Of a stretch of 64,000 nt of DNA, positions 673-42,249 are shown piece by piece. Made by a program: the position numbers and the translations under genes. The DNA lies in the NCBI RefSeq assembly GCF_037042905.1, contig NC_087245.1:27344001-27408000 (forward strand), read 5' to 3'. The DNA is from Lytechinus pictus. Taxonomy: Eukaryota. The stretch's first letter is position 1; each line of letters opens with the position of its first letter. The notes below the pieces were generated by a model, which worked only from the letters and a program-made list of their open reading frames with translations, ran no database searches and was not told where the DNA came from.

Positions 673-3535
673 TTAAGATTTTACTGACAAATACGACACA
701 TTTCCTGTCTCTCGTTTCGTGAATACGCTGCCAATTATTTTTTTCGGTTTAGATCATTATTTGGTCCAAAAAATGAAAGAAACTTTCAATAATTTGCGGA
801 CATCAGATTACCTACGTTAACCATCTCTCTTCAGGTACACAGCCATACACATGCACGCTATTCCACTCTCAAGTACTCAAAACCATAATACATTTGACAT
901 TTTTTGACCAGATGATATATATTTAATAACACATCATGTGAGATATAAAGAAATATTGGGTTTACATGAAAATAATAACACACCTTTACATAGAAAATAG
1001 TACAATTCTTTGATGATAAAGTTGGTTTTAAATAACAAATTGATATTTACAAGTAAATTGAGATGACCTGTTTACAGGGATCGTGTTCATATGCTCTAAG
1101 TTATGGTAAAATAACAGTGAAATAGCTATCAATATTTGCGTGTGGTAAAAGAGAACGTAAGAAAAAATGTGCATTAGCATAAAGGGTGGCAGAACAGTCT
1201 GAAATACCAAAGAAAACAATCTGCAAACTACAAAACAAAATAAACAATACGTATAAGGTAACAGTGACAATTCGAACACGCATACTGTATATTTTCTATC
1301 ACTGATTCGGGAAACCTTTGTCTTTATGTTGTGTACACATATGTTGGAATAAAGAGGGGGTATTAAATACCTATCGGTAAATCGCCATTGATGCCAATAT
1401 AATTGATAAATCTGGAACATTATTGTATGATCTGTGTTTATTCTCATTATTCGTATAGTACTTTTTTAGCAGGCATGCCAACGAAACCGACTCCAAACCT
1501 ACCCATTATGTCATTAAAAATAACGCTAATTTTATCGGTTTGTAGTCGGTATTTCGTAAGTGTGAAAGCAACGTAAGGTAACTTGTTAAGTAAAAACTTT
1601 AAAGAAAAATTGAATGGATAAAAACATTATGAGTGTTTTGAATTTACATTGGTATTAAAGTTGTTCCGCAGTTATAATCAACGGTATTGCATACACTTTT
1701 TAATGGGATAAGTTACTATTTTAACTACATTGGAATGACTCCAACCAGTTTCCTTTCACATCTGAAAAATTTGGTTTGAATAACGGTACATATTAAAACA
1801 ATTTAATAAAACAGAAATTATCCAACCCCTAGCACGTGAATCTTCAAATCATAATAGGTCTATATGCTATCATTGAACTTTTACCAAAGTGTATTCTTCT
1901 TAAATAAAATGAGAAGTAACAAGCGTTAAGTCTTTAGACTTTTTACCTTATCTTTCCAAATGAAAAGAGTTACAATATGCACAAAACGATTTATACAAGA
2001 AATGTATGTCATAAATTGAATACCAAATTTGAAAAAAAATTTATAATCAGCTTGATCACAAAGTTGTCCATAATTGTGTAACACATATGACTTCATGGCC
2101 ATATAATTATACGACTGTATACCATGAACCAGTTTGGACCAAATATCATTCACAAACTCCTCCATAATATTCGTGAAAGGTGCAGTTGAGTGTGATACAT
2201 CAGACACAAATGGTAGATACATTTATATTAAACCTCTTTCCGACGTTGGTTCAATAATACATGGTTTATATCGTGGGCATTCCGTGTGATAGAAGGCAAT
2301 ACTAAGTAAAGTTAGGCATATATACTTCAAGCAATATGCATGCTATGTGGACAGAAAGCTACGTGCCAAGTGCTCTCTAGACCTCTCCAAAGAGTCCTGA
2401 GAGAGTCGTTATAGTTAGGAATAAACTCCCAGTGGATTGACTTTGCTGGCTGTTGACCGCAGCTAGTGGCAACTTGTCTCAATCATATGTCGTTTTAGAC
2501 TGCCTTTGTATAAAAGAACTCCTTCATTTTCTTAAAAGGAGAACCAAAGGAATTAAAAACAATTTTTGACGCTGCCTTGCCACGAAGATATTAATGTTTA
2601 TTTTCACTTCCGTTATTTTGACTATCGTGTACACCTACGGTATTCTAATACACTGATTATGTGAAGGAACAGCACACCTCGTAGTTAATCAGTATCGATA
2701 AGAAAGTAGATTTAAAAAATAAGTTCATTTAATCTGCAGATAAAGGTGACATCGACAACCGTTGACGTCATCTCATCTCGACTGTATCGTAATAACGACA
2801 ATAGATATTTCAAAATCCTTCAACTTACATGTCAACATCTTTAATATTATACTAAAGTAATGGTACGGAGCACTGCCAATTAAGGTGACCAGAGTAAAAA
2901 GCTAAGAAATACTCTACTGTGGTAAAAGCCAATATTGTTAACAACCTACAATAATTAGCAGTCCTACATTAAAGAAGGTAATCTTAGTCTATATTCTTCA
3001 AGTTCGGAAAAGAAAATACCTTCCTAATGCTGACATATTTTATATATAGAATTCCACTTTGAGCGAGTATAATCACGTATATACCTTTATTCATAATGTT
3101 CAATCGGGATTAGTGCACATCTGACTCCGTCTCCCGAAGTACCATTCCAAATATACTACAATTAAAGAACACAGTTTTGGGGAAGGATTCGAAAACACTC
3201 TACCCTTTTTTAGTAAAGGGTTTTTAAGAATATACATCCGTTGAAATTAATATAATCCACACTTTTGGCAGTATATGTTCATAGAATAATTGGTTATTAG
3301 TTGTGCCACCTTTATATTATATTGCGTAATTCAATCTACTCCTTATCAGTAGTATCAATATAGAACAGTTAAATGAGAGGGAATTTTAGTACCACCCCTG
3401 CATGGATATATATTCCATAACGCCCAAGGAATCAAAGGTATACTTTGATAATTGCCGTTTTGTTTGCTTGTGTACATGTGTTTTATGGTCATCTCCTGTT
3501 CAAAAATAAAAATCCGAAAGTTCTGCTCAATTCTA

Positions 3536-3699
3536 TCATCTCCTACCTTGCATGGACATTATTTGATTGTTATGGTCAATTAAGTTTCTTCTTGCGTTTG
3601 CCAATGCCTCCTGGTGCTTGTTCTTAAGGACCCTTCTAATGACATCCATTGAAACTGGTTTAAACGATTCCAACAAAAACCCAGATCGTCGGCTTCTTT
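3536..3699 (-). CDS. Coding exon B of CRH/DH44-type neuropeptide precursor (mature peptide, amidation signal, stop)
   Basis: Acceptor tttatatctttcattgcAG ends at 3700. Phase-1 join G|AA gives E, then RSRR (furin-type site), 46-aa SGFLLESFKPVSMDVIRRVLKNKHQEALANARRNLIDHNNQIMSMQ and GRR-stop. MDVIRR and Asn at -8 from the amide match the CRH/DH44 pattern. Confidence 0.85.
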
Positions 3700-4243
3700 C
3701 TGCAATGAAAGATATAAACAAATAAACAAAGTGGATTATTGGAAGATTATTAATGGAATCTTAAATCCTTTCACATGCATAGATTTAACCTTCATTTAGG
3801 GAGTCGTTTCTGTGCAATAATAATTAGACATTCATATTTTTACAAGAATTAAACTTGGGCTGAACATGAAAAATAATCAGCCCAAAATGTAAATTTTCAA
3901 GTTTTAAACATATTTATGCGAACATTATAGGGGGTATATTTCCGGTAGATATGGCCACTGTTTATCAATTACCCCCTTTAATGCTTTGCACGCTGAATTG
4001 ACTGACAACAGCGACTACTGTTGTCTTGATATTTTCTTGAATTTTGATATCCATTCTGCAACATTCACACTGATGATTATATTGTAGATGTTATCGGAGA
4101 ATTCTAGCTATCATTTGTAGAAAGACTGCTTTAGCCATGGTTGCTGACTCTGAGAATGCCAATTCTGTACACATGCGTCTTTGGACGTGTGTGTGTGCGC
4201 GAGTGCACTTACACTGGCAATCGCGGACTTGGACACATGCTTC

Positions 4244-4313
4244 AAATTTATACCGAAAACATACAGCGAACCAAGGACGTCCTCGGTTTGCTGTATGTTT
4301 TCGGTACAAATTT
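4244..4313. repeat. 70-bp loopless palindrome
   Basis: 35-bp arms centred on GACGTC, 3 mismatches, all transitions. Confidence 0.9.
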
Positions 4314-5703
4314 CGTTGACCATCGTGAACGATTTTAATGGTCTAATGTTCTTTCATTTACACGGACAGATAAAAAGAAGTCGATTAATAAGGATCATGA
4401 TGATATAAGCTGTCCTCAGTTATTCATTGAAGTTCATATGACTCCATGTTGACTAGATGCCTATACATAAGTCTTCGGTTATATAGTTTTAATTTCTTAA
4501 CCCCCCCCCCCCGAAATTGTGCCCTCGATTTTTGCCCAAAATGTGCGTCAGTTTTTACATGTGAATTGGTGTAACTTTAAAAACGGAATAAAAGTGACAA
4601 GCATATCAATGGGTAGGAAGTTGGATAGGAAAGTAACAGGAGTAGTAGAAGTAGAATTAGCAGTATTAGTAGTAATAGAATAGTAGTAGAAGTAGAAGCA
4701 GCAGCAGTAGTCCAATTGGTTGTAGAAGTAGACGTTTTTTTTATTTAGCACTTCAAAATTTTATGATATCTTAACCTTTTTGCAAAAATATTATTATATA
4801 TTATCAGTTCGGTAATGCATTATAATTGCAATAGTGAATTGTTAGTACTTGGTACTTGGCACATTCAATTACAATTACCAAGTTATCATTTAGTCGCGAG
4901 TATATTGACAACATGCATTTATTCACTCCACTCAATTCAAATTCAAGAACGAAGATGAGCGTCACAGATCACAATTATATTTTGGTCAATTTGCCTGAAA
5001 TCTCTATATAATTATGTCAATAGTTTGATATAGAGACGCTTCTCCCCTCGGTGCAAATTAAACACTTTGCTCTATTTGGAACAAAACCTCATATTAATGT
5101 ATCTTCAAAGTTATTTGCTCCTGCACTTGAGAGTTGTATTCAACAAATAAAAATAATTGATAGAAGAAGACATTGAAAGGGTTTCAAAGTACAAGTAACG
5201 GACGCCGAGAACCACTTTACCTCTCCGAGTGTGTATCTCTCGTCCAAAATGTAAAGTAGAAATTAAAATTAGCAACAGCCCTTCAAAAGATACGGAGTTG
5301 AAGAAACTACCGGGTAGATATGCATTTCATGAAACAATGTTTATATCTGCTATGTTTGCATGGCAACTAAAATACATTTTAGTGTCATGAAAACGACCGA
5401 CTCATCTCCTTTTCACAACCGAGTAATAAACCAATATCATTCTTTTGAGAGTAAACACACACTGACATGGAAAATATTTAAATAATGTCATGATGGATTT
5501 GATATCAGGGTCTAATCATAATGAATCCCTTGCGAATAACTGTTCGATGTAATTGATATTTCAATATGGATATCAATATTACGATTTTTATTTTTTGAGG
5601 TACATTTGAAATTACAATGACTATCTGAAAGTGATGAGCTTGTACATAAGGGTGAAGCAGCGAGAGAGAGAGAGAGAGAGAGAGACGAAAGAGAGGGAGA
5701 GGT

Positions 5704-5743
<40 letters not shown>

Positions 5744-5842
5744 CATAATATGTATATATATATATATTTGAATCTGATATCACTTTATTGAAGTCACAAT
5801 AAAGAAAAGAAAAAGTAAATACAAAGACATAATAAAGATTAA

Positions 5843-6445
5843 AGGGATACTGCGGGCTGAAAATATTCATTTCTTGATAAATAGAGTAAAATTCACAAAG
5901 CAAAGTGCTGAAAATTTCATCAAAATCGGATAACAAATAATTAAGTTATTGAATTTTAAAGTTTAGCATTATTTTGTGACAATAGTTATATGCACATCAT
6001 CATGAATATTCATTAGGTGGGCTGATGATGTCACATCCCCACTTTCCTTTTTCTTATGTCATTACATGAAATCATAATTGTTTCATTGTTTCATAGTAAT
6101 GTGTGAATAATGTGTCTCCTCTAAAATGAAATAAGTTGCAGCAATTAATACCAGATGCACTGATCAGTTGTCTATCCAATTTTTTTCAGTTCTTGGTAGA
6201 AATATTTTGAATAAACCTAATTTCATATAATAAAATACAAAATAACAAGTGGGGATATGACATCATCAATTTACTCATTGAATATTCATAAAGACATGCC
6301 CAGAACTGTTTCACCGGAATAATGCAAATCTTTAAAATGCTATAACTTTGTTATTCGTTGTCCGATTTTGATCAGATTTCCAGTGTTTTGTTTGTCTGAT
6401 TTTTCTTTATCTGTTTAAATCATAATTTCAGCCCGAAGCATCCCT
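5843..6445. mobile_element. Kolobok-like non-autonomous DNA transposon (MITE)
   Basis: TTAA|AGGGATAC...GCATCCCT|TTAA, long imperfect TIRs, related to the 10774 and 20905 copies. Confidence 0.85.
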
Positions 6446-9400
6446 TTAAGATAGGCCCAGGTCATGACGCATTACTGTCGATGCATGGCAGTAGAATAAA
6501 ATTTAATGTACAATGTCGATGTAAGTAACAGGTACATAACTTATACATATAAAATATCTTTAAAATGAGTATGTGACATGATAAATTACAGCCAAAAGTT
6601 AGGGTAAATATTACAATAAGAGAGAAAAAGAAATATGCATACACACACATATATATTTATACTAAGTTTACAAATATTAGGTTGGGACCAGTCTCCAAAT
6701 CATAAACAAATATCAGGAGTAATTCCGACCACAATACTAAATCTGATAGGCCTTCTATTAAGATAAAGATTATGGATAATAAACAAACTGTATACCATGT
6801 CATCAATGTCAATATAATATCTAACCTTCCACTTGTACATTATATACGTAGAAAGAAGAAATAGAAAGCAATAGAAAGAGGAATGAAGATGGAATGAGGA
6901 GAGAAAGAGGGAATATAGAAAAAGGAAAGAGAGAGAGAGGGGGAGAAGAGAGAGATGGGAGAGAGAAAGAGATAGAGAGAGAGAGAGAGAGAGGGGGGGG
7001 AGAGGGGGGGTGGGTAGAAAGGAAGAATTAATACTCCTTTTGAAATAATGCCGATTGCTATTTAGAATATGACATAAAACCACAAATTACGAAACGCATC
7101 CCATGAAATACCGCTGGATCATAAATGACTTCAAGCAGTAGGTGCTATATCGAGGATTTCCTATCTTATATCACCAGAGGTGTTGCATTGGATTACACTG
7201 TTTGTGGGTATATGGGCTAAATATATTACTTCCGTTATGAACAGTGCGAAACAAAAGAAACAGTTTTTTTAGAGAGATATTGCGATCGTCAAAAAAGTCA
7301 ACCAGTCAAAGTGGGCAAAATGTTTAATCAATGTGACGAGTCGGTAAATCTTGTTAAAGTGTAATTCATACACGTAGGTGTTTTTCCATGTATAACGAAA
7401 CACACATTTTAAGTGATTTTTATTTCTTATTAATCCTGCATATGTCATAATTATGAGGTAGCTCTTTTTAGATACATTAGCGATAGTAATTACTTCATCT
7501 AAAAAAAAAAAAAAACTCGACCATCTCCTTTATCTTACCGGAAAGAACATGTTCATACATCAAAATACTGAAACCATCTCGATTAATGGAGTATTCTGAT
7601 ACGACATCCCGAAACAATACCCTCATGAAAAACATTTTTTTGCGGCAAGGTAAATTTACATTCTGAGAGAAAAGTCTTTATCAAAATATCTGCATTTGAC
7701 CATAAATGGCAGGATTGAATCTTGACCCTTGCCCCATTTAACTTTGTAATTACCATTAATAATCGGAGTATTGTTTAATCTGCTATGACGTTTATAATCA
7801 CTTTCGTCACCTCTTGACTTTAAAACCAATTGGGAATAGAAAAATCAAAATACCGTTAAGGGTAAATACGTTCAAGGTTTTATGACGTCAGAGTTCCCAC
7901 CGATGACATGTATCCAATTTTAGGGCTGAAGTCGAGAAGTTTTGGTGATCGGAAATGAATATCAATGAATCCAATCTGAGAAATTGTGATAATTATTTTG
8001 TCAGTGAAACCCGATTCGTATCCTTAAACGGTCGAGAAACCCCATCCGTATCGTATGCTCCCCATCGATAATAAGATATTCTGAATGAAATGTACATCGG
8101 AAAAAAGCTTTCAGGGGAGAGGCAACGACTTTTGGGATAATCCCAGCAACAGGGGACATGAAACGGAATATCTTACCGATGGATATTTAACGAGACGCAA
8201 ATTAAAGAGACTAGGGAAGAACAGCAAATGACGAACACGAGCTGCAAATTGGCAATCATTTCAAGCCTCCTTCAAGACCAATGGCTGGACTTCGATCCCT
8301 TGATAATTATTCCTAAATGATTACAAAACACCCAAACTCCCCTATGTTTTGACATCTATAAGGTTTGTAAAAACAGAGGTGAACATTCGTAATTATTACG
8401 ACTGCCCAAAGAACCAGAGACTGCCCCAAGGTAAAATCTTATGGTGATAATTAGAACCTTCTCCTTCGGTTAGATAAATCTGTAGGAGTCCGAATTCACA
8501 CTCATCCTGCTTGCAAAATAGCCGTGTCGCAAGTAGCATCGCAAATCAAGAGCTCTATGAACATTTTGTAAATGTTATTATTCTGTGACACAAGTAGATT
8601 CTTACTCGTGTAATGAAAGAACACCTTGGCGATTTGCAGAATTTCCTCGGGCGGTATATAATACACGTTTTTAATCTCATTTACCCGAGGAACGCGCCTC
8701 AAACAGATTACCGTCGAGTTGGCAGTGTAAGCCGACAAACTAGTGAAATTCGACCTACAAAGTGATTAACAGAAGATGGAATGAAAAATTAGATCGTTAT
8801 GTAGATACCATTTAACTGATTAGCAAACTATCATACCATCGTGGTAATACTAACAGCAAAGAATCTTCGTCTGAAAAAGAATTGTTTATTGCACATGAAC
8901 TATGTATTACAAATATTCATTTCTAGATGCAGGAATATTTATTCAGTAATCTCAAACAATTACACCATATTAACATCTGGTCGGAACTAGAAGATGATTC
9001 CCCCACACAACGACGGAATTCTCGTAAGAATAGTAATGAGACTATTGCGTCTTGCAGACAACAGTTAGACGTATCACCGATTCTACTATCGATGGTGTAG
9101 TGATCGATAGTCCTCCATTTTTGATTGATTTCTTTCAATCTGCATTAAGTGGTAGATCAATAAATGTCTTCACCCATGTTAGACCCGTCACTTTTGAGAC
9201 AGTTGCACGTGCCTTAAGGTCCCTTAGCATTCCCGATTGTGCGTTGATTTCCGATAAACGTTTTGAGAATGACCAATGAAAGAATCAAGTTTCTCCAGTC
9301 TTAAGTCATTTGATTAAAAACAAAATGTGTCGTTATACCATAATCTATCACGATCAAAGTTATTTGCCATTCCCAACACTATGATTAATACCCCCTAATT

Positions 9401-10066
9401 ATGTGTCTCTAATATACCATATCGTTAACATAAGGAGTTCTTAAAGTTAAATGATCCAATCTCTACACACGCTCGGTTAACTTGCAGTACTCGGTCATAT
9501 CATGTCATACGAAAGTGTAATAATATTCATTGCAATTTAATGACACTCCCATCATCTAATGCCCATAAAACACTCAATCAATTAGATGTAAACTTTATGA
9601 TATTTTACAGTAAAATGTAGATTATCATTTTTCAACTATCGATGGGCCATTTACATTTTTTCCCTTCCCATTTATTTATTTTTCCTTTTTTTCAGAGGTG
9701 TCTCCCGCTATGAAAGTTTAAAAACAGAGAAGGGTTCAGCCAATTGGCGACATTGACGTGAAGAGTATCGTCCAGCTGACTCTAAATTAAACAGGTTGAG
9801 AAGAAGAGGGGGTAAAAATTAGTAACGAACGAAACAGGAGTTAGCAAACAGCTTATACCAATATTTCAATATTTTCATCAGTCAAATGAATATATATGTA
9901 TTGACTTAATCTATAATTCCATAGCTGATGTGAATTGAACTGAAAAGCAAGAATGGTTTTGAGCATTTTACTTCAGACTTTGAATGTTTCAGATGTTCCT
10001 TCCACTTTTCATGTCTCGTTATTTCCATTGATTTAGCAGTCGAGCATGTCTAATGATAGATCTATT

Positions 10067-10205
10067 CTGGGGAGTGTTTCATGAATCAATTAGTGATTTT
10101 CACGGACGAATTTGTTCTAAGCCAATCAGATGCAATGATTTCAGTAGCTTACAATAGTTTGCCATTAAAAATCATCGACTATTTGTTTAATGAAATACTC
10201 CTCAG
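10067..10205. mobile_element. Short palindromic Harbinger-like MITE
   Basis: ctg|GGGAGTGTTTCATGAA...TTAATGAAATACTCCT|cag; termini similar to the 43919 element. Confidence 0.65.
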
Positions 10206-10773
10206 CTTTCTTGATGTACAGCATTTCCATCCTAAATATTCAACATCTCTGGGATAAACGTAGAAAGTAAAACCTGAAGCCAATATTTCTTTATTTCTTA
10301 AAAATCTATAAATATACAATTTAAATCCTGATGATATTTAATGTATCACCAGAAAAGAGCAAACCATGTGGAAAAGTGATATTGTCCTGACATCAAATTG
10401 AACCTCCTGGCAGATGCCACAATCCAACAAAGAACTTGTAATTCCTGATATTACTTTATTACCTAGGAACATCCAGGTCGCTGATTTTATCTTGGTCAAC
10501 TAATTACATCATTGTGGAGCATGCCTCCTAGCTGTTCACCATATATATCAAATTGCAGTAAACTGATAAATGAAAACCCCGCGACATAACTGTCACCAAT
10601 TATGTGATAAAATCGTCAAGCAAGTCATCTTCGGTAGCAGAGCATCGTCTGTCCCCTTAGAAATGCAATTAGCGGGTTAAGATAAAGACGCAAAGATGCA
10701 TGAAAATCAAGAATTTGATTCCTCGAGTGAAAAAAAAAAATGCTTCTTCATCTTTGCACAGACCATACCTTAA

Positions 10774-11378
10774 AGGACAAGTCCACCCAACAAAATGTAA
10801 ATTTAGATAAAAAGAGAAAAACCCAACGAGCATAACTCTGAAAATTTCATAAAAATCGAATGTAAAATAAGAAAGTTATGACATGTTCAAGTTTCGCTGA
10901 ATTTCACATAAAAGTTATATGCACATCCCGGTCGGTATGCAAATGAGGGAACTGCACGATGACATCACTCACTCATTTTTCTTTTGTATTTTATTATATG
11001 AAATATGACATATTCTAATTAATTCCTCATTGTCCTGTGAAACAGAGTTTTATTTCTCCCTGAACATGTGGAATTACCATTGTTTTAACGTTATATGGTT
11101 CAGTCAAGTTGGTCCTTATTGTCAAATCTGTAAAAATTGAAATATTGTATAATTAAAACAATAGAAAACAAAATAAATAATGAGTGAGGGACATCATCGA
11201 TTCTTTCATTTGCATGTGACTAAATTGTGCATATAACTATTTTGCAAAAAATAAGCGAAACTTTAAAATGTCATAACTTTCTTATTTACATCAGATTTTG
11301 ATGAAATTTTCAGCATTATGCTTGTCTGATTTTTCTCTATTGATTCAAATCAACATTTTTATGAGGTGCACTTGACCT
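10774..11378. mobile_element. Kolobok-like MITE
   Basis: TTAA|AGGACAAGTCCACC...GGTGCACTTGACCT|TTAA; close homologue of 20905-21507. Confidence 0.9.
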
Positions 11379-14300
11379 TTAAACATTTCGCAACAGATGG
11401 TAATTTTCTTGGTGTTATATTCCAAGTTCGTAAAATGGTAATGACTGATTATGATTAGTGAAAAGTAAATCACATGGTAAATGTGTTATTTCCTCATCTT
11501 TACAAAGTTGAGTTTTGCTTTTAGTTGATCTCTCACGTTCACAGCTTTTCATCTACATAACGACTCATAATGATCAAAATTTTAAGGGATGCGCGAATTG
11601 TAGTTTATTGCTCTGTGTATACTACCTTTGGTAAAAGTGCGATAAACTGTCTACTATCCTCGATAAAAGTTTCTCGCTCTGTGAACCTCCTTTGCTACTA
11701 TTAGCAAAAACAAACGCCATAAAATATCAATGGAATACATCTCTAGATTAAAACAATCAGAATGGTGTGCAAAAGAGGGATTAAACTGTTGTTTAACTAG
11801 TGTCTAAATCTAACCCTAAACTTTTTCATTTTATATAGATGTCACTATCCCCATTTTCTTTCGATTCGCTAAATATCTTGAACGAAAGACCTAGTTTTGG
11901 GAGCTATAATACTGATGTGTAATTTTTTTTTTTGTAGCAACCCCAAGATATTTAAGTTTCATGGCGTATTAAAGAGGCTCTCCTTTAAAAATTTTCATTC
12001 AATTAATAAGGACACTTAAAATTTAAGTCAACACGTGGCTCTTCTTGTGTAGTTCATTTACATTTTCAAAAATCATTGCCCATGTGAATAGGTCCCACAT
12101 TTAAATGGCCAAGTTTTTAATGCGAACTTACCACCTCATGACACTACACCGTGACGCGTTGATTAGGTAAAAAGCCATTATCATTGATTACCTTTAATCA
12201 AGCTAATATCTTAATCTCCCAGTAAAACATAAAAAAATGATATCAATGGCATATATGAAAACGAATTCCATTTTACATTTCATGTCCATTAGGCCTATCA
12301 TTCTGTTTGCGATTCTTATTGCTATATTTGCGCGCCTGACATTTGTACCTTTGGATCGAATGGTACGTTTTTCTTTATATCAATGCATGATCTGACTGAA
12401 TTAATGGCACTAAGAGAGATATCATCAACGGCAAAAAGGCATGTTAGTCCAAGTTCAGAGGAACCCACATTTCTAGCTCGTTATATCGACTCAGAAATTA
12501 ATGCAAGCAAACACCGCAAATGCACAACTAATTTCTTTGTGGAGTGAAAGACCAAACAGAGAGCCGGTTAGTCATAAGTGTCTGTCAGGTCCTCGTCCAT
12601 TCGAGAGCAGATTGATGGTGGCTTTGAAGAGCAAAATAAGCACATGAAACAACCCAGGTAAGTAATCACGACTCCTACTAATGTGTGAACACAATACGAA
12701 CGATGGGAAGAGAAAGGTAATGAGACAATGACAATGGTAGTGAGAGAAGGGTGGGAAAGTAGATTTGCATGGCAATGGAGAAAGCGAGTGGGCGGGTGAG
12801 TGTGTTTTTGAGAGAGAAGTGAGAAGTGGAGCCTGTGAGTGAATGAGAACAAAAAAGAAGGATGATAGAATGGGAGATTCGGGTTTTAAAGAGGATGCAG
12901 AACTCCATAGTTTTAGGCATATAGTTTTAATTCTTATACATCATGTCAGCATACGTCATCGATAAGACAGGGCTATGAGCTAACTCAGACATAATGACTA
13001 TCGGGGACAGTCTTACAAAGTAATTAAGCATAAAACGAGGACAGCCAATAATGAGGTTCACTATTAAACACGACTTGTACCAAATAATTTTCAGTAAGTT
13101 CACCCCTGGCATGACGTATATTAATCTTTTTCTTTCGTTATCAGAAATAATAATACGAGATCTAATCTAATTCTAATTGGGATTACACTGCACTTTAGAG
13201 TGTGTACTTCCTATTATTTTTTGCTTGATATTGCTTATTTCGGTATTTATGTCTTGTAAATAAATGCTTTAATGATGAGAAAAATGATGATTCATAAGGG
13301 AAATGGTTTTTCAATTTTCCGGACAATGGCTTGGGCGCATTTTCAGTCGTATTTTGACACCTTCAGTAATGATGACCTTTTGTTTGTCATCGCTTTTGGA
13401 ATCCCAATTTCCGATCTCAATGGACCATGTTCTTGTCAAGACGAGATGTGTATTCTATCTTCGTAGTAAACATGACAATGATGACTCAAATAACAGAGGC
13501 ACAGGAAATGTGATATAGTTTTTTAGCTCGAAGTTATTTTAAAAGTTACTTTGTTGCAAACACACTACGATGTCATTCTTCAATCAATGCATTCACCAAC
13601 AATGACATCAACGAACTGTAAAATTTTAACTAGCACGAGGGTAATGATGTGTCTAACCAATTTGGGGCAGTATTTTACCCAATGTGGGAAGCATATTGTT
13701 CAGTATAAGGTTAGAAAAAATAAGCAGCAATTACTTTAGAATGGACCAAACTTTCATCACACTGGATAAATAAAAATGCCCAAAAGAGATACCCAATGTT
13801 GGTTGGACACATAATTACCCTCATGGAGCATTTTTACCCAATATTTTTTAAGGTGTAAATATACCATTAAGTTAAAGAAGATATACCTACTATTATTATG
13901 ATTATACATATACGAATATGTATATCAATATATAGGAATATGTTTATGTCTCCCTTAAATAATATTTCTATTCATGACTTGTAGTTGATTAGAAACTAGA
14001 CAAGAGTTATATGATATGTTGGTAGAAACTTTAGACCTTTCGTTTGGGTATTGATGTAATTCATCGTGCATATCCTTATTTAATGTTTCATTTATTTATT
14101 GTGACAACAGCAGAAGCTAGAACATGCTTTAAATCTCAATACCTGTTGATTAAATAAAATGCCCAAACCACATCCTTATCCGTGGTCAATTTAGCTGAGC
14201 AATAACAGTAAAAAAAGACTTGATTGCGGGGAAAGCCTTGCTGGTATTCATACCACATATTGTCCTCATAAAACTAGGGCTAGTTGTAATTTATTCTTTA

Positions 14301-14917
14301 AAGGAGGAAATGTCATCCCGGTTTTAGATTTGAACTGCAGTGCACTTGGCATCGAATAACTTCAATTAAAAGCGTGACAGTCTAAATGGCTCAAAGACAG
14401 ATCGATGACAAATCTTGAAAGTGATAGATTTCAAACCATCTTCAACATTTTTCAACTTTTCGAAGAAGCAGTAGGGAAATGGATTAAACGGCGTGGTCAT
14501 GTAGAGCCAGAGTCGACACGGAACATTCTACCTCCTTGATACTTTTTGACCTATAAGAGACATGACAGCTCATTGATTTATATTCTTTTATGTTTCTATG
14601 CATTCATTCATTTATCTAGTAATAAATCATCTATTTTACAGCACTTATACACACACCCACCCACCCACATACACACACACACTATTTATCAATTATGTTT
14701 CTAAACACATATCTATAAATGTATTCCTTAACTTATCAATATTTATTGTCATTTACATTTTAATATTTATTGACCAAACTAAATGATAAGGTGGAAAGGA
14801 TAAAGATTTTATCATCATTATTATCAATTTGCGTTTGACAACGGTTAATCATTTTTGATATGGTAAAAGGATGTTCGATAATTGCATAGTAAAACATTAA
14901 ATCATTTGTCCGTCCAT

Positions 14918-15002
14918 CATTCATTCATTTATTCATTCCTTCATTCATTCATTCATTCATTCATTCATTCATTCATTCATTCATTCATTCATTCATTCAT
15001 TC
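14918..15002. repeat. (ATTC)n microsatellite
   Basis: Direct reading. Confidence 0.95.
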
Positions 15003-15489
15003 GCCTTTCCCTTATTTTATTAATAGATGAATGTCTGCATTTCTCTATTCTGTTTATTTTGTAATATTCATTTCCCCAAACTAATCGATAAAATAGAAGG
15101 TATCTTTGTTTAGCAATGGTTGATTATATTCAATATGCAGATATGGTAAAATGGATGTTACATGATTACAAAGTAAACGTTCATTTATTTATTGATTAAA
15201 ATATGCATTTCTTCATTCATTTTATTATTTTCTAATCACCTTTTTATCAAAGTTATTCATTTTCAACAAGAGCTTTTTTTATTTATTTTTCGGGGGGGGG
15301 GTGGGGTCATTAAATAAAACATCCTTCTGGAGCACAACTCGGCTGATAAAAAAAATATTCATTTAAGAAATTAATGTAGGACACCAGGATTTTGGAAAAG
15401 ATTTCTTACCCGTACAATTCTTATTTTTCATATTTTCTTTTACTATTACTACATTTTATTACAATAATAATAGAGACAGCGATCGTTAT

Positions 15490-15635
15490 GTTGTGATGAT
15501 CATAATGAATATGACGATGATGATTATGATAATGATAATAAGAATAAGAAGAATGATGATGATGTTGATGATAATAATAATGGCGATAATAATAATAATA
15601 TTAATAATAATAATACTAATGATAATAAAAGATAA
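15490..15635. repeat. Degenerate (ATG/ATA)n microsatellite
   Basis: Direct reading. Confidence 0.85.
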
Positions 15636-16615
15636 TTACACAACTCGTTCACTGATTCTTTGATCTACATACACACACAGTTAAATATTAGTAGAAAAAA
15701 AACCCATATTTTTAATGGTTATTGAGGTAACCTTTTCCATACCACAGCAGCCTCTCCAATTCTTATTCAGGTCCTATTTTCTTTATCATGCAACATGAAA
15801 CTGTATTTGTTCTTCTCATTGACTTGTTTGTTACTTTTTATTCTCCATGTATTTGAAATGCCGACTAGAATAATAATGATACATACCGTTGTACCGAATT
15901 AATTACTTTTTATCATTTTTCAAGATCACTGAAATTAAGTTATTACATTTTCAACTCTCGGCGGATAACGCGATGAGCTGTATTTTAATCAACGAACAAT
16001 TTGACAGATGCACCAACCTGGAAAGCTCAAGAGAATGTATTTTGGAAGGTGCTTTTCTTTGCTGACAGAAAAGTAATCGATTTTAATCTCAAGACTTTTG
16101 TCGCCCAGGGCTTCATTTTCGTTGAAAATTTGCAATCGAGGAGATCTGTGTTCAAGAATTATGATGTATCGTTTTTCAGGGCGACGTAGCGTGGGTTAAT
16201 ACTCGCAGCTATCGCTTATTTCCCGAAGGAAAATTATATCCAATTGTTTTTAAATCGACATTGATACCCCTTTGTCGTGTCATGTAAGGGATAATATAAC
16301 ACAACACAGCAAATTATATTGAAAATGAGATCTCTGTAAAATACATGGACAAATAGTCTTACTTTAAACATCCCCCCAAAAAACCTTGAAATTCAGAAAA
16401 CAAGATTAAAAAAAAAATCATAATTCAATTAATATTGGTACACAAGGTTTTATATCTGTACACAATTCATCTTTTAAAAATGATGAGAATGTGAGAGTTC
16501 AAATTCAAAGCATTGGACAAACAACAAATTTCTCGCGAATATGTGTCCTTGCCTCCAAATTTTCACAATCAATTGGTTATAATCTACTAAAATGTTTGTT
16601 TATTTGTTACCAATA

Positions 16616-16823
16616 TACACTCTAAAAACACTGAATAAAGATTTATCCTGGGAACATGCATTTTTGCTGTTTTTTTTACCCTATATTGGGCTAAATGCAT
16701 TTTTTAAGGGTAAATTTCAACGCAACATTGCGTAAAATTCACAAAATATTTAGTATCTGTTTACCCAACTAACATGCATGTTCCCATTTTACCCATTATT
16801 GGGTAAACCCTTTTTAGAGTGTA
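16616..16823. mobile_element. CACT-terminus MITE with TA flanks
   Basis: TA|CACTCTAAAAA...TTTTTAGAGTG|TA; internal TTTACCC motifs; related fragment at ~13640-13856. Confidence 0.8.
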
Positions 16824-17030
16824 TTTGGTCGGACACATATTCACCGACAGTTGAATAAAGTTTGGCCAATCCCTTTCACGAGTTTTAAGTTACGTGAGTG
16901 TACAGGCTTATTTTAAAACTTAAAACGTTTTAACTTCATCCATCACACTAGGTTACCAACTTTTGTATAAAGACATGCAAGTAATTATACATATATCTTT
17001 TTTTTTATTTGGTGGTGTATTTCTACTCAC

Positions 17031-17244
17031 CCATATCATTATAGTTATCATCATAGAGTAACTCCGGTAATGTCTTATCCGGTGAGAGGAGGGCACGGAG
17101 CGTGAGGTAATTTTCAAGAGAAGAAGATGGCGATAGCTGACGTGAGTTCTGATCTGCAACAGGTTGGCATTGTCCGAAGCGAAGGAGAAGACAAGCTGCA
17201 AGGAGGATGGCTCTACTCAGCTGGCAAAGTGATCGCTTCATCAT
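17031..17244 (-). CDS. Coding exon A of CRH/DH44-type neuropeptide precursor (signal peptide + propeptide); whole exon 17031-17352 including 5'UTR
   Basis: ATG at 17244 (the track's 17250 start is TTG) gives MMKRSLCQLSRAILLAACLLLRFGQC-QPVADQ...LLYDDNYNDM, with basic n-region, hydrophobic core and small-residue cleavage site. Acceptor ttcccttttccttacttttcAG ends at 17353, with CTAAT branch-like motif upstream. Donor ATGG|GTGAGT at 17030 (phase 1). No upstream ATG in the exon. Confidence 0.85.
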
Positions 17245-18087
17245 GGACAAATGGAGACGCGATAGTGTGGAAGGGATGTCTTTCAGAGTATGTAGCTTGC
17301 GTTTCCCTGCTCAAGTGATTTTCCTCAGCAATTTGTGGCAAATCTAAGCGGTCTGAAAAGTAAGGAAAAGGGAATATTAGAGGTTTGAATAATGCAACCT
17401 AGCAATATTTTGGCATTAGTGCTTCATGTGGTATTCAAATTCATAAACGAAACTACATTTACTAGTTTATAAATTGCAAAGAAACATTTACGAAAAATTA
17501 TGACTGGCTGTGTCGTATATGTCGTAAGAAAGTTCTGGGTTGTTTGAATACTGAATCAACTCGTTTTATCCAGAGATTTCCTAATTGGCATTGGAGCAAA
17601 ATATAGACGCGCATCCTTTTCACTAGGAAAGCCATACATCCGACGTAGTCTCGGCATGCTCAAGGCCATTGTGGGATTCAAAATTCCTTTTTAGGTCCAT
17701 CACGTCACGTCTGTCTTCATGTAACTCGAGAATAATGCCCATTTTCGAGGGGTGGGGGGGGGGGGCTAATTACGTAGAAATAATGTAGAACGCGACATGG
17801 AAATATCGAAAATTAGTATTTTCAGATTGAAGGAAGACACACACACGCGTTTCCGCAGACGTCTACATCCATACCCTTATCCTACCCCTCCACAAACACA
17901 AGGAGAGAGAGAGAGATGGGGGGGGGGGGGGAATCAGAATAAGGACAATAAACGCATGTGATGGAATGTACGTATTTTGGAACAATTATCATCATGATAC
18001 CCAATTATTGGACAAATTCTCAAGGGGTAATAAGGCGAATGGAAACAACCACTAGAAAAGCAACCTAACTCGCATTACTTAACTCAC

Positions 18088-18364
18088 CACAAACAGAAAA
18101 TCTGAGATGAGCTCAGCACTCTCTACCTGAAACCACACATCGAGTGATCAACTCTCTTCAGAAGAGTTTTAAAATCAAGACCAATCCTGTCAATAGCTAC
18201 GAGTCACCATGACTCGATTTCAAAGCCCAAAGATTCAAATTTTCTTGACCAGAAACGACTCTCCCGCTCAATCATTTTCAGGACATTACTCTCTGATGTA
18301 AATCTCACAGGAAATAATCATGATAATCGGGCAGATACTGCCATTAAATAAGGCATTTTATATA
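18088..18364 (-). promoter_or_regulatory. Alternative candidate proximal first exon/promoter
   Basis: TATATAAAA 18364-18356, CAGT Inr-like motif ~18339, donor GTG|GTGAGT at 18087, ~735 bp upstream of the exon A acceptor. Contains several upstream ATGs. Confidence 0.25.
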
Positions 18365-20750
18365 CTAGTACTTAGCTTTATTTTTCCTACATCATAAAAT
18401 TGAAAATGCTCTAGGTATTGCTAACGATGTGAGCTCAGATTATTAATAGTATAAGAAATTACAAACAAGTGCCCCCGAAGCTCACTCTGTACATTAATCA
18501 TTTTGACTGTTTGCCCATTTATATTGATATATGGTATTAGCATTGAAAAAACTCGAATTATGAAATCTTATGTATTGTAAACATTTTTTGATACTTGAAT
18601 AAATCATGTATATGGTGCAGGACTCGAGCCTTTCTGATTTCTACCCGTGTGCGTAATTTTGTTGTCATCCCACCAACATAACCTACGGGCGACGCATCGC
18701 GACGCCGGGATATTTTGATGGGGAGGGGCAGTGGCATATGACCTAAAATGTGACATAATATCTAAAAGAAAGAATTATAAGCACATTATAGAATTATACC
18801 ACGTAGAAATTATTTTCGACTCTTCTTCTTCCTTTCCTTTCTCCCTCTTCTTTGGTTTCGTTTTCCTCTTTTTCTTCACTATATACTTGCATGATCATCG
18901 GGAGCTGCCCTTGCCCCCCTCGTGGCGCCGCTCCTGACAGAAACAACTTCCCAACAATAATACACTTTCTTATTTGAAATATTACGTAATATTTCTCGGC
19001 TTGGGTAAATCAGTTTCGTTTGTGTGACTATTGCCTTTAAACAAGATGTTTTTATTTGATGCCAACATAACTCTTCTTCCAACAATACAAGCGTAATTCG
19101 GAAGGTCCATCACCGGTCGCGCTTTCTTTGATAATAGTGCATATTTCAACAAATAGGGTTGGATATTAATATTATTCGTGTGGTAGAGCGATTATAAAAC
19201 GAGAAGTGGAGTACGTGAACTGGTTTTCACTTGGTGTCGTGCGCACGTGCAATTCTACCATATTTCGTTCCGCCGTTTGGTTACAGTATTGACAAGATGA
19301 CATTGATCTTTTCCCTGAAATAATTTGCAGACTCTTCCCCTTCAAATATGTATTTTACCTATCATTAATCAACCTCAGGTTAAGGCAGGAAGGGAATAAG
19401 GTTGTCTGACTTTCCATTTCTGGAGGGAAAATACATTCAACAGTCTAGTTCACTCCTATGTCAGTATTTGGATTTCTAACAGTATATTTTAATTAAAATT
19501 GGACGCTGTTTGAGCACCCCATCATGTGCAAGACCTAAAACCATTCTAGTTTCTTGAATAGTTTTACTTTATTAATGGTGTATGCTAGTAATATATCGCA
19601 TCCATATATCATGGAGCTATCATGTATTGAAGTGATAGTTGAACCGAAATAATCTCGGAAACAGTTTTCCTTAAATGATTCTTGATTCTATCTGCATGTC
19701 TGCATATATTCAAGTAAAGTGAGATCGATTGCTAATAGAAAATGATGAAAATTTGTTTCATGCAATTTATATATGATCATTGTTTTTTATGGAGCTCATA
19801 GATCTGTAGATAGAACTGAGAGTAAGCTTGTAGCATACTGTGGTATTACCTGTTGCTGCTGTCTCATTTCTCTTTTCAATTGGAGGCAGGTTTAAATTGG
19901 AAACTGTAAAACCCTTTTCAATGAAGAAATCTGGTATTACCTTTAAAAACGGTTTAAAAAGAGAAAAGAACTAATATGAGCAAGTATCCACAAACTAAAG
20001 TCCCGCAATTCAACAGTTCAGTTACTGTTATCTATTTCACAAGGTCGATCTGTATGTCGTATTTCCCAAAATAAAGCAGTCCTTTAATCGGAAACCGTAT
20101 TGCCGGATGCTACATCATTTCAGTACACCAATAATAGCAGCATCATTAAACTTTTTCAGGGCTCTTCAAAACATTGAAGACAATGAGTAAATAAGAAATA
20201 GAGAGGGGGAGAGAGGGGAAGGACGGAGGGGAAGACAGAGAGGATAGGATGATCAAGGCGTAATGAACGAGAAAACAAGATCCGAACCACATTGAACATT
20301 ACTTTGTGCACGAATTCTTGGAATCAGGGGCGCCATTCACCATCATTTTAGCGGAACGGGCTGTTGTCGGTGTCGTCTTATATACAACCTTCTGTTTTTC
20401 GTTCCATGTTTGTCATTTTGCGCACACCATTGATCAGTCTGTTTTCCCCATTCGAGTTGACGCAAACAAAGTAATGCCTCGTTTATAATATGAAACCCAC
20501 CCACACTAAAGTTCTATTGTTTGGCTTCAACCTCCTCCCACGGGAAGAGGTTTGAAACTTAAAACGCAAGAAAGTCAACGGTTAGAGATCTATTTATATT
20601 TTCAAACGTTATAAGGAGTTTTTATGTATCATGACTTTCAACACGTGTTCATTAAAATAAAAATATCATCGTTGACTGTAGACTCAGAACCCTGATCTAC
20701 TTTTGTACAACTATCCAGGTTTTATTGAATTAATGCACATATATTGCACA

Positions 20751-21624
20751 TTGAATATTGTCCATTTTTAAGTTCCTTCTGATGACTATTCGTTGTAACA
20801 ATCTAAGTAAACGGGTGACTGCTTTACTGAAACGTCTGGCATTACATAAATGGGAATAGAAAACAATGTTGACGTACCATAAGTTGAATATTGTCCATTC
20901 TTAAAGGAAAAGTCCACCCCCAACAAAAAGTTGATTTGAATAAAAAGAGAAAAATCCAACAAGCAAAACACTGAAAATTTCCTCAAAATCGGATGTAAAA
21001 TACGAAAGTTATGACATTTTAAAGTTTCGCTTAATTTCACAAAACAGTTATCTGTACATCCTGGTTGGTATGCAAATGAGGAGACTGGTGACATTATCCA
21101 CTCACTATTTCTTTTGTATTTCATTATATGAAATATGAAATATTCTAATTTTCTCCTCATTGTCAAGTGAAAAATAATTAAGTCCTCACTGAACATGTGG
21201 AATTAGCATTGTTTGATACTATATGGTTCACTCAAGATGGTGCTTATTGTCATATCTGTAAAAAATGAAATTTTGTATAATTCAAACAATAAAAAACAAA
21301 AGAAATAGTGAGTGATGGACATCATCGACTGACTCATTTGCATGTCACTGAGGTGTGCATATCACTGTTTTGTGAAAAATAAGCGAAACTTTTAAATGCC
21401 ATAACTTTGTTATTTTACATCCGATTTTGATGAAACTTTCAGCATTATGCTAGTTTGATTTTTTTCTGTTTATTCAAATCAACGTTTTTCTGGGGTGGAC
21501 TTGACCTTTAAGTTCCTTTTGATGACTATTCGTTGTAACAATCTAAGAAAACGGGTGACTGCTTTGTTGAAACGTCTGGCATTACATTAATGGGGATAGA
21601 GAACAATGGTAGGCGTACCATAAG
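20751..21624. repeat. ~133-bp tandem duplication, second copy interrupted by a MITE
   Basis: Copy 1 20751-20883; copy 2 20884-20904 + 21508-21624. Confidence 0.9.
20905..21507. mobile_element. Kolobok-like MITE
   Basis: TTAA|AGGAAAAGTCCACCC...GGGTGGACTTGACCT|TTAA; empty site visible in the adjacent duplicate. Confidence 0.92.
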
Positions 21625-21884
21625 TCAAGGCTCCCCAGAAAGTAGAAAAATAAATATATGTATGATAAATTATCATCTAAACAAATTATACCACAACCTA
21701 ATGCAAGTATATATGTTACGAAATAAGTTCTCAATGTCACAGTATTCACATCAATTATATTTCCACTATAATCAATTTGCTTTGTACTGTCACTGGCATT
21801 TCTCATACATTCAACCCTTTATGTAGAAACACATGATTCTCACACTTTATTAAGGTGTGTATATGTATAGATATATATATATAT

Positions 21885-22855
21885 AAAGTTCGCACTTTGA
21901 AAAAGCCTTGGGAATTAAAAAATATACAACATGTGGGTATTTTTTTCACATATAATCTTGGGTTTGGGTCTAATCTATCCAATGAAAGTAAAGCTTTGAC
22001 AGAATGTTACACTTGAGTGAGCACTGTCCATTTTTGTAAAGATAGCAGAAATCTGTTTGCGCAGAAATGCTCGTTTTCACGCTGTTTCAAGGGGAAAGGG
22101 CGAAATTAAATTTACCCTGCGAATCATTTCTCATACATTTCCCTTGCACTTTTGGTCAATTGAAATTAAACGGATACATTCAAACATTTTGTAACAATTT
22201 TGCCACCCAAGTTGACATTTCAACAATTAGTAAGTACAACCTTCACCCTTTTTGTACCAGCTGGATCTGAGGACATAACTGAATCTGAACAAAAGTTTAT
22301 TTCATGCATCTCCAGCATTTTTTTACTAAGTTTTTATCATTTAAAGTGGGTTTACATTTCATTTTTCATTTAATACTTGTTTCTCCACACTTTTACCAAG
22401 CTTGATAATGATTAACAAAATGAAAGTCAAGCCTAAGCCATTTCATGTAAATCACAGCTCAGTGTAAAGCAAATATCGTCACGATGGCCTGGGTGTTTGG
22501 GAGAGTGGGGTGGGGCGCAGTGCACCCTTCGAAGTGTTTTGGGCAAGGAATAAAGTTTAAAAAAGGTAAAAGATATCTTCAAATCAATTTTACGAGCTAA
22601 ATTCAACGTGTTCTTCATGATTAAGGTCTACATTTATTCACATAACTATTTCAAAGTTCTGCGCAAATAATTTTCACTAACTTTTCAAAAGTAAGTGGTG
22701 CTCACTTAAGCGGAAATATTTTTCGACAGTTATATCGTCATTTGCTTAAATGGATCTGTCCCGATGTTAAAATGTGGAAAATGTTCAGGATATTACAAAT
22801 GTATCATTTTACAGGATTTTTTCTAACTGTAAACTTTTTTTTGATACGCAATGTA
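21885..22855. mobile_element. Tc1/mariner-like non-autonomous element, left terminus eroded
   Basis: Right end ...TGTAAACTTTTTTTTGATACGCAATG|TA; left AAAGTTCGCACTTTGAAAAAG roughly mirrors it; lies in (TA)n. Confidence 0.6.
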
Positions 22856-25855: not shown

Positions 25856-25948
25856 AAACAAATGAAGATTTTATATAAAAACGCCTTAAAGAGACATAAT
25901 CTCTCTTATGTCTCTTCATGGCGTTTTGTATAAAGTCTTCATTTGTTT
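25856..25948. repeat. ~93-bp hairpin (inverted repeat)
   Basis: ~43-bp arms AAACAAATGAAGA...AGAGACATAA / TTATGTCTCT...TCTTCATTTGTTT around loop TCTCTC. Confidence 0.85.
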
Positions 25949-27048: not shown

Positions 27049-27623
27049 CAGTGTTTCCACCGTGGGAGGAAATCTGTCCCCAAAGGTAGGGGGGGGGGAC
27101 CAGGGGCTGGAAACTTTGACAAGCCAAAAAAAAAAAATATATATATAAGGTCATTCAAAAAAAAAATACAAGCTAAAAAAAAAAGGTTTTCACCCAAAAT
27201 GTAAGGTCATATAGTCCAAAATATTATTTTGATTGGGATTTTTCTCCATCATGAAAGACCAAACATAGTAGGAGGGACATTTGATATGAAATTTTATTTT
27301 TAACGAAAATCGTTCAAAAACAAAGTGAGCCTAAAACTTGGTCCACGTAACCAAAGTCGAAGGATTTAAACTATTTTGCTGAATGCACTTTAAAAAAACA
27401 GCAACAAAATTACAAAATGAAAGAGCGGAGCGCGAGCAGAATTTTTTTAGCTACGGATGAGGCAAATTCTTTGAATATAACATGCATGTTGAAAGTTGCT
27501 ACGTTTAATAGTAATTTTCCGATTTCCCGGAATTTCCTGGAATTGTTTCATTTCCCGAAAATTACGTGAAAATTATCCGGATTTCCCGGAATTCGGGAAA
27601 TTTCCTTCAAAGTGGAAACACTG
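27049..27623. mobile_element. hAT-type non-autonomous element
   Basis: Perfect 12-bp TIR CAGTGTTTCCAC; 8-bp TSD TTCATGAC/TTCATAAC; subterminal TTTCCCGG repeats near the right end. Confidence 0.88.

Positions 27624-39793: not shown

Positions 39794-39827
<34 letters not shown>

Positions 39828-42211: not shown

Positions 42212-42249
<38 letters not shown>

What the first reader, a model, noticed from the sequence alone, without database searches (positions are those of the whole stretch)
3536..17352. Hidden split gene for a CRH/DH44-type amidated neuropeptide
Seen: two short minus-strand ORFs 13.3 kb apart join through canonical phase-1 splice sites into a 125-aa prepropeptide (signal peptide, acidic spacer, RSRR, 46-aa peptide, GRR-stop). 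Knowledge: CRH/urocortin/insect DH44/mollusc ELH peptides are ~36-47 aa amidated helices. The last 34 residues (MDVIRRVL...IDHNNQIMSMQ) align without gaps to locust DH as I recall it (MDVLRQRL...IKANKDFLQQI) and share the Asn at -8 of CRH (NRKLMEII). Inference: a divergent, probably echinoid, CRH-family ligand. Its N-terminus lacks the usual PSLS/PISL motif, so it would be easy to miss by BLAST and may be annotated only as uncharacterised. Starfish and brittle-star CRH-type precursors are known; whether this one is described I cannot tell.
Basis: partly seen in the sequence, partly recalled or inferred. Interest (0 to 1): 0.85.

Follow-up and report, generated by a model that had tools for sequence, protein, structure and literature searches.

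The report
Unannotated CRH-type neuropeptide gene, likely urchin
This is a real, spliced gene, likely of a sea urchin, whose 125-residue product is predicted to be secreted and cut to release a 46-residue amidated peptide that is likely a new, divergent member of the CRH/DH44 stress- and diuretic-hormone family.

Summary
Confirmed. Minus-strand exons 17352-17031 and 3699 onward join in phase 1 into a 125-aa frame: signal-like N-terminus, spacer, RSRR, 46-aa peptide, GRR-stop. Contigs from two studies join 17031/3699 exactly. A second species shows the same splice in 3 of 4 runs and no listed change in the peptide exon. A likely non-coding first exon lies at about 52206-52000 (not read-tested). 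Family rests on architecture and pattern; Pfam, PDB, Atlas and protein searches gave no CRF hit. Asn(-8) and hydrophobic(-4) match 9 of 9 complete echinoderm CRH-type peptides seen. Gapless overlays give 8/44 identities with locust DH and 8/41 with human CRF, including receptor contacts Ser7, Asp9, Asn34 and Met38 (shuffle p 5e-4 to 5e-3). No spliced orthologue was found in the protein collections, and no paper found names it. This scan had not noted this sequence, but noted another CRH-type gene 249 kb away (unchecked). Verdict: new member of a known family; processing, receptor and function are inferred.

The parts
52234..52281 (-). Candidate core promoter: CCAAT at 52281-52277, TATAAA at 52239-52234 (inferred)
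   Evidence: the only TATA + ATG-free exon + donor + CCAAT combination on the minus strand in 22501-64000 (1 of 2 TATA-donor pairs); 0.005-0.02 expected in simulations; length window chosen after seeing the candidate
52000..52206 (-). Candidate non-coding first exon, about 207 nt, ATG-free, donor G|GTAAGT (inferred; no reads laid here)
   Evidence: transcript contigs carry 181, 183, 185 and 187 nt upstream of exon 2 in 4 of 5 contigs, 91 in the fifth (the three organism-B values assume an exon 2 of equal length)
17353..51999 (-). Inferred intron 1 (34.6 kb); its acceptor at 17353/17352 is supported by contigs
   Evidence: table 8: both contigs leave the genome at 17352 and show no further piece in 2600-22500
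17031..17352 (-). Exon 2 (322 nt): 108 nt of leader, then 214 coding nt from ATG 17244
   Evidence: orthologous unspliced ORF P0001, 68-72% identical
17167..17244 (-). Predicted signal peptide, residues 1-26 (cleavage after Cys26 judged by eye; SignalP not available)
   Evidence: Hydropathy core at about residues 13-21, peak 3.3; hydrophobic core and Cys-Gln-Pro-Val junction kept in P0001
3700..17030 (-). Intron 2, 13,331 nt, phase 1, GT-AG
   Evidence: same splice in organism B from loose ends in 3 of 4 runs
3686..3697 (-). RSRR, predicted convertase site
   Evidence: Sequence; fits R-X-K/R-R consensus (recalled)
3548..3685 (-). Predicted mature 46-residue peptide; helix predicted over residues 13-45
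   Evidence: (mean pLDDT 87.8, single sequence); no listed substitution in organism B
3536..3547 (-). Gly-Arg-Arg-stop amidation and cleavage signal
   Evidence: Sequence
2600..3535 (-). 3' UTR of exon 3 (covered down to 2600, the edge of the stretch laid; the X15 contig runs on for 1695 nt)
   Evidence: table 8

Best explanation
This is a spliced gene encoding a 125-residue protein that is predicted to be secreted, cut at RSRR and at the terminal RR, and amidated, releasing a 46-residue helical peptide that likely activates a CRH/DH44-type class B1 receptor and raises cAMP. Shown: exon structure, splice, open frame, conservation in a second species, and an exon-2 orthologue in a third unnamed source. 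Predicted: signal peptide and helix (residues 13-45). Inferred from the family: convertase, carboxypeptidase and amidating-enzyme processing; two-step binding, in which the amidated C-terminal end (Asn39, Ile42, Met43) docks on the receptor's extracellular domain and the N-terminal Ser12-Met13-Asp14 stretch enters the transmembrane core; and neuronal or neuroendocrine release. The physiological role is not shown. A neurohormonal or neuromodulatory role in stress, feeding or reproduction is a guess from relatives.
For: Splice and frame. Constraint: 0 of 158 coding nt versus 5 of 107 UTR nt differ in run X14 (Fisher p 0.010); the two coding changes that could be read are synonymous (one computed, one read by eye). 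Architecture (one long peptide at the very end of a precursor of about 120-130 aa, then Gly + basic residues) is that of starfish ArCRHP and brittle-star CRH1-4. Of 43 O. victoriae precursors listed, only the 4 CRH and 1 PDF precursors end in G-K/R-R (by eye). Asn(-8) and hydrophobic(-4) occur in 9 of 9 complete echinoderm CRH-type peptides seen (8 brittle star; 1 starfish) and here. Of 7 CRF contact residues named in PMC10886364 passages, Ser7, Asp9, Asn34 and Met38 are identical, Leu8 and Leu37 are conservatively changed, and Ile41 is not kept. Class profile: 12 of 21 columns, p 5e-4 gapless, 5e-3 best of 9 registers; best of 45 rotations 9, reversed 6; strict contact pattern 23 in 1,000,000 shuffles and 1 of 8775 window 46-mers. 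Gapless locust DH overlay 8 of 44 (by eye).
Against: No CRF or ELH Pfam hit at E<=10 for any of 5 pieces. No CRF, urocortin or DH chain in PDB sequence searches or Foldseek. Atlas gave nothing usable. 9 of 21 CRF class columns are not met, among them Phe12, Leu19, Arg35 and Ile41. The loose profile is reached by 80 of 8775 window 46-mers, mostly low-complexity ones, and it was built after the likeness was seen. Two registers one helix turn apart score alike (12 and 11), so part of the match may be helix periodicity. Arg-to-Asn spacing is 22 against 19 in brittle-star CRH1 and CRH4. The peptide holds two internal RR pairs. If the two unlisted organism-B differences were coding, the constraint test falls to p 0.16; within organism A it is not significant (p 0.61). 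Two raw RNA runs (about 6 in 100 read) showed no reads on exon 3. No peptide, tissue or receptor data.
Confidence: 0.8

Rival explanations
1. The precursor is real but is cut at the internal RR pairs (residues 17-18 and 32-33), so the active product would be a short amidated peptide (13 residues) and the CRH likeness is vestigial or chance.
For: Two internal dibasic pairs in the sequence; no family hit for the long peptide.
Against: Both pairs lie inside the predicted helix. Locust DH, isolated as a peptide according to PMC3061863, also carries an internal RRR. The whole exon, not just its end, is unchanged in organism B, and CRF-like residues sit in the N-terminal half.
Confidence: 0.07
2. 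It is a helical amidated ligand of another class B1 receptor (PDF-, PTH/glucagon- or calcitonin-type) or a lineage-specific orphan peptide that converged on a CRH-like pattern.
For: Echinoderm PDF precursors were first misnamed CRH-type; all database searches are blank; two equally good registers.
Against: One peptide, not two. It lacks the N-terminal NDF motif of the brittle-star PDF peptides, and the amidated brittle-star PDF peptide has no Asn at -8 (by eye). No cysteine pair, so not calcitonin-type. PTH- and glucagon-type peptides were not compared with a tool.
Confidence: 0.1
3. On novelty only: this gene is already catalogued, as a sea-urchin CRH-type precursor or under an Np number, in a paper or supplement not visible here.
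For: PMC4772807 says in passing that CRH-like precursors were found in S. purpuratus, though its CRH section and figure legend list none. The 38-gene list of PMC6209648 was not found in the main-text parts seen and its supplement could not be read. A 2021 starfish CRH paper and the 2012 and 2018 urchin peptide surveys are recalled, not seen.
Against: 0 papers hold any of 4 peptide words. 'CRH' and 'corticotropin' occur 0 times in the main text of PMC6209648. No spliced form or full-length orthologue in three searches of the 5.8-billion collection or among 1.84 billion representatives. The printed remark could refer to the other CRH-type gene.
Confidence: 0.25
4. Chance pairing of two short frames, or a non-coding transcript.
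For: No homologue of the peptide exon in protein collections; no reads in two RNA libraries.
Against: Exact exon joints in five studies of two species; coding-versus-UTR contrast; conserved exon 2 protein.
Confidence: 0.02

Closest known systems
Brittle-star CRH-type precursors 1-4 (Zandawala et al. 2017, PMC5627052; supplement passages and file 4 seen)
   Same: Precursor size, peptide at the extreme C-terminus, G-K/R-R end, Asn(-8), hydrophobic(-4); a D-aliphatic-aliphatic-R core as in O. victoriae CRH1 and CRH4. Like CRH1: no internal KR in the spacer and no N-terminal Gln.
   Different: 46 residues against 41 and 44 in the two counted; three more residues between the core Arg and the Asn; tetrabasic-type RSRR site; low overall identity (by eye).
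Asterias rubens ArCRH (Semmens et al. 2016, PMC4772807; section 17 and supplement passage seen)
   Same: 130-aa precursor with one terminal amidated CRH-type peptide; Asn(-8), aliphatic(-5), hydrophobic(-4).
   Different: 41 residues with N-terminal Gln; little identity in the N-terminal half.
Locust diuretic hormone, DH44 family (Schistocerca DH printed in PMC3061863 Table 3)
   Same: Same length (46); gapless overlay with Met13, Asp14, Val15, Arg17, Leu20, Ile36, Asn39 and Gly2 identical; amidated.
   Different: The N-terminal Pro-Ser stretch and the mid-helix hydrophobic run are not matched; 8 of 44 identity only.
Human/rat CRF and urocortin 1 (PMC10886364 Table 1 and passages)
   Same: C-anchored gapless overlay with CRF: Pro5, Ser7, Asp9, Leu15, Ala22, Ala24, Asn34 and Met38 identical; amide signal.
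   Different: Five extra N-terminal residues; Phe12, Leu19, Arg35 and Ile41 classes not kept; no database-level similarity.
A second CRH-type gene noted by this scan 249 kb beyond the window (e1-9937113, unchecked)
   Same: Described as a two-exon prohormone with a CRH/DH44-type amidated peptide in the same genome.
   Different: Described with an extra KR-flanked 41-residue piece and a RefSeq model; this gene has no internal KR-flanked piece, and its sequence look-up matched no earlier window.

Membership tests
CRH/DH44/ELH neuropeptides | Secreted precursor with signal peptide | tested here: inconclusive
   Hydropathy core and conservation in P0001; SignalP not available
CRH/DH44/ELH neuropeptides | Peptide of about 40-46 residues at the precursor's C-terminus, bounded by basic sites, with Gly amide donor | tested here: met
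   compared
CRH/DH44/ELH neuropeptides | C-terminal Asn (CRF Asn34, -8) with hydrophobic residues at -5/-4 | tested here: met
   Asn39, Ile42, Met43; family Asn named in PMC7481443; 9 of 9 echinoderm peptides have Asn(-8) and hydrophobic(-4), 8 of 9 hydrophobic(-5)
CRH/DH44/ELH neuropeptides | N-terminal aliphatic-Ser-aliphatic-Asp activation motif (CRF 6-9; 'Leu, Ser' in PMC7481443) | tested here: inconclusive
   Val-Ser-Met-Asp lies at CRF 6-9 in the gapless register, but Val replaces Leu/Ile, and in the alternative DH-like register the same residues align with the core helix instead
CRH/DH44/ELH neuropeptides | Aliphatic-aliphatic-Arg core starting a long helix | tested here: met
   Val15-Ile16-Arg17 (DH register) or Val19-Leu20-Lys21 (CRF register); helix 13-45 predicted
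CRH/DH44/ELH neuropeptides | Match to a Pfam CRF or ELH profile | tested here: inconclusive
   No hit at E<=10; HMMER filters drop weak matches, and no accepted echinoderm CRH-type peptide was run as a positive control, so the blank cannot be weighed
CRH/DH44/ELH neuropeptides | Activates a CRH/DH44-type class B1 GPCR | not testable with these tools
   Needs a receptor assay; no receptor sequence was available
CRH/DH44/ELH neuropeptides | Conserved synteny or intron position with other CRH-type genes | not testable with these tools
   No genome held; no other gene found in the window
Echinoderm PDF-type precursors | Two tandem peptides, each with an N-terminal NDF motif | tested here: not met
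   Single peptide, motif absent (by eye)
Calcitonin-type peptides | N-terminal cysteine pair | tested here: not met
   No Cys in the mature peptide; compare

The most novel reading that the evidence does not exclude
This gene and the CRH-type gene noted 249 kb away are a linked, ancient pair rather than a recent copy. This one would correspond to brittle-star CRH1 and the other to CRH2-4, so the duplication would predate the urchin/brittle-star split (about 0.3 on its own), against the published view of an ophiuroid-only expansion. In the boldest form the pair would be a surviving counterpart of the two pre-vertebrate genes (CRH/UCN1 and UCN2/UCN3), with this peptide keeping the vertebrate Ser-x-Asp activation loop at exactly the CRF distance from the amide. 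The probability given is for the boldest form.
Probability: 0.1. Interest if true: 0.7.

Novelty: new member of a known kind. Interest (0 to 1): 0.42.

Why it matters
Sea urchins are a main model for deuterostome neurobiology, yet no urchin CRH-type peptide sequence turned up in the papers searched. This gene gives a defined, synthesisable candidate ligand for deorphanising the CRH/DH44-type receptors and a probe for in situ work. It was not found in the protein collections searched and is invisible to Pfam, so standard neuropeptide surveys would miss it. If the neighbouring gene is confirmed, urchins have two linked CRH-type genes, which bears on when the family first duplicated in deuterostomes. 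The kind of system is well known, so the interest is moderate.

Tried and rejected
Pfam on 5 pieces of the gene: only Neugrin at E 0.1-0.14, below cut-off. Homologue searches: peptide exon against longer proteins, 0 of 17 candidates; exon 2 frame, 1 of 17 (P0001); profile of P0001 plus exon 2, 1 of 1072 (P0001 itself). Search of 1.84 billion representatives: one hit, P0002, rejected as summed weak matches over pyrin repeats of a fish protein. Metagenome scan: L001 and L002, rejected as chance matches inside bacterial-type ORFs (the scan covered 20 of 64 parts). PDB sequence hits: designed helical filaments and cyclin A2, chance. Foldseek: 0 matches; a lone helix is uninformative, so no further fold search was run. 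Atlas: no usable hit, then hits of at most 0.85 to helix-turn-helix clusters. No RNA holder was listed on record. Raw RNA runs X19 and X20 gave no cover of exon 3 (tissue unknown). No paralogous exon in the window (tblastn, best other hit E 0.12). No Rfam or tRNA match. 12 other long frames: no Pfam hit above cut-off. No complex prediction was sent, as no receptor was at hand. A computed alignment or tree with real CRH-family sequences was not run, so identities to printed peptides are by eye and the family p-values rest on a class profile. Earlier-findings look-ups by sequence, near, relatives and a second word set were empty.
Full report
Observation. The window is 64 kb at 35.6% GC with no long coding frame. 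On the minus strand an exon runs from a pyrimidine-rich acceptor at 17352 to a G|GTGAGT donor at 17031. Its ATG at 17244 has an in-frame stop upstream in the same exon and gives 214 coding nt. A second exon starts after a TTGCAG acceptor at 3699. Joined in phase 1 across 13,331 nt they give 125 codons: hydrophobic N-terminus, spacer, RSRR, 46 residues, GRR, stop at 3536. A CRH-like ending occurs once among 7768 stop-ended segments of the window, against 0.05 per simulated window (pattern set post hoc).

The gene is real. One contig of run X1 and one of run X15 (two studies, organism A) pass from 3699 to 17031 with consecutive record coordinates, and both leave the genome at 17352 (table 8; the joint row itself was among 532 not shown). 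The runs are not on record as RNA, but a GT-AG-exact joint is what a spliced transcript gives. In organism B, contigs of 4 runs from 4 studies cover the peptide exon. In 3 of 4 the loose end beyond 3700 is the 3' end of exon 2 with one synonymous change; the fourth contig stops short. All 6 listed substitutions and all 3 listed insertions lie in the 3' UTR. In X14, 0 of 158 coding nt and 5 of 107 UTR nt differ (p 0.010). If the two unlisted differences of the other runs were coding, p would be 0.16; within organism A the contrast is not significant. An unnamed 525-bp contig encodes P0001, 68-72% identical to exon 2 and reading into the same donor context. Two raw RNA runs, 6 in 100 read, had no reads on exon 3, which fits restricted expression but shows nothing by itself.

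A third exon. The contigs carry 181, 183, 185, 187 and 91 nt upstream of exon 2 (the three organism-B values assume equal exon length), and no such piece was shown in 2600-22500. At 52281-52000 lie a CCAAT box, TATAAA, an ATG-free stretch of about 207 nt and a G|GTAAGT donor. It is the only such combination upstream, with 0.005-0.02 expected (length window chosen after seeing it). The gene therefore likely spans about 51 kb. No reads were laid there.

What family. Database tools are blank: Pfam, PDB sequences, Foldseek, Atlas (29, 74) and protein collections (9, 25, 68); P0002, L001 and L002 are chance (26-28, 37, 38). The case rests on printed family members compared by eye and on a class profile. 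(a) Architecture: of 43 O. victoriae precursors only CRH1-4 and PDF end in G-K/R-R; PDF has two peptides with an NDF motif and its amidated peptide has no Asn(-8). (b) All 9 complete echinoderm CRH-type peptides seen have Asn(-8) and hydrophobic(-4), as here. (c) Locust DH is also 46 residues and overlays without gaps at 8 of 44 determined positions. (d) Anchored at the C-terminus, the last 41 residues overlay human CRF at 8 of 41, and residues 10-15 (PVSMDV) fall on CRF 5-10. Of seven CRF contact residues named in PMC10886364, four are identical, two conservative and one (Ile41) lost. The class profile scores 12 of 21 (p 5e-4; 5e-3 over 9 registers); the strict contact pattern appears in 23 of a million shuffles and 1 of 8775 window 46-mers. 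Against: the loose profile is reached by 80 of 8775 window 46-mers; it was built after the likeness was seen; a second register four residues away scores 11, so helix periodicity contributes and true column homology is unresolved; 9 columns fail. AlphaFold2 predicts one helix, residues 13-45.

Mechanism. Shown: transcription, splicing, frame and conservation. Predicted: signal peptide and helix. Inferred from established family knowledge: cleavage at RSRR and RR, trimming, amidation of Gln46, then the two-step binding described for CRF, with Gs and cAMP as for DH44. Confidence 0.8. Rivals: another class B1 ligand or orphan (0.1), internal RR cleavage to a short amide (0.07), artefact (0.02). 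'Works like a CRH-type ligand' and 'is a member' stand close together here: no defining feature failed, three are inconclusive, and the receptor and synteny tests could not be run.

Organism and neighbour. I did not test the taxon. Earlier unchecked notes call this genome a sea urchin and describe a different CRH-type gene 249 kb beyond the window end, closest to brittle-star CRH2-4 and with an extra KR-flanked piece. This gene lacks such a piece and an N-terminal Gln, like brittle-star CRH1 (by eye), although its C-terminal end resembles one CRH2 more. PMC5627052 treats the four brittle-star genes as a lineage expansion. PMC5818035 infers two ancestral genes before the vertebrate doublings. 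Hence the novel case: about 0.3 for an echinoderm-level pair and 0.1 for the deeper link.

Novelty. Ten searches of the open library found no paper naming this peptide, and four peptide words gave 0 papers. Seen: PMC5627052 (passages, section 10, supplement passages, file 4 whole; its .ai figure files unreadable), PMC4772807 (passages, section 17, supplement passages), PMC6209648 (passages, section 12; supplement unreadable and may bear on novelty), PMC6586643 (passages, outline), passages only of PMC5860471, PMC12638048, PMC7481443, PMC3061863, PMC10886364, PMC5818035, PMC9759900 and PMC10508912, and a word count of PMC9793003 (0 hits). PMC4772807 mentions S. purpuratus CRH-like precursors without listing one in the parts seen. 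A 2021 starfish CRH paper and the 2012 and 2018 urchin surveys are recalled, not seen. Prior description stays possible (0.25).

Verdict. Observation confirmed, interpretation supported with one correction, new member of a known kind, interest 0.42.

Noticed in passing
window 5839-6449, 10769-11382, 20900-21512: Three palindromic elements of about 610 bp with TTAAAGG termini, MITE-like and very deeply covered in read data; two lie in intron 2 and one in the inferred intron 1.
   Followed up: partly
window 55688-56244 and 58511-58972: GC-rich arrays of a 53-bp unit as an inverted pair, flanking an imperfect palindromic region of about 1 kb (56808-57950) with 185-bp repeats; likely a decayed DNA transposon.
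   Followed up: no
window 60492-62905: Tandem duplication with a period of about 970 bp, about 95% identical.
   Followed up: no
window 18854-20926: A 2070-nt low-depth contig in run X15 covers non-coding sequence upstream of exon 2, as pre-mRNA of a long first intron would; DNA is not excluded.
   Followed up: partly
window 46098-46105 and 46512-46519: Two perfect CRE palindromes 414 nt apart, about 6 kb inside the inferred first intron; 4 occur in the window, chance not assessed.
   Followed up: no
window 53636 (+ strand frame end): A 24-residue stop-to-stop segment with two Cys ends in GKR-stop; no precursor context was sought, probably chance.
   Followed up: no
P0001: The only database trace of this gene found is an unspliced read-through ORF of exon 2 on a 525-bp unnamed contig.
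   Followed up: yes
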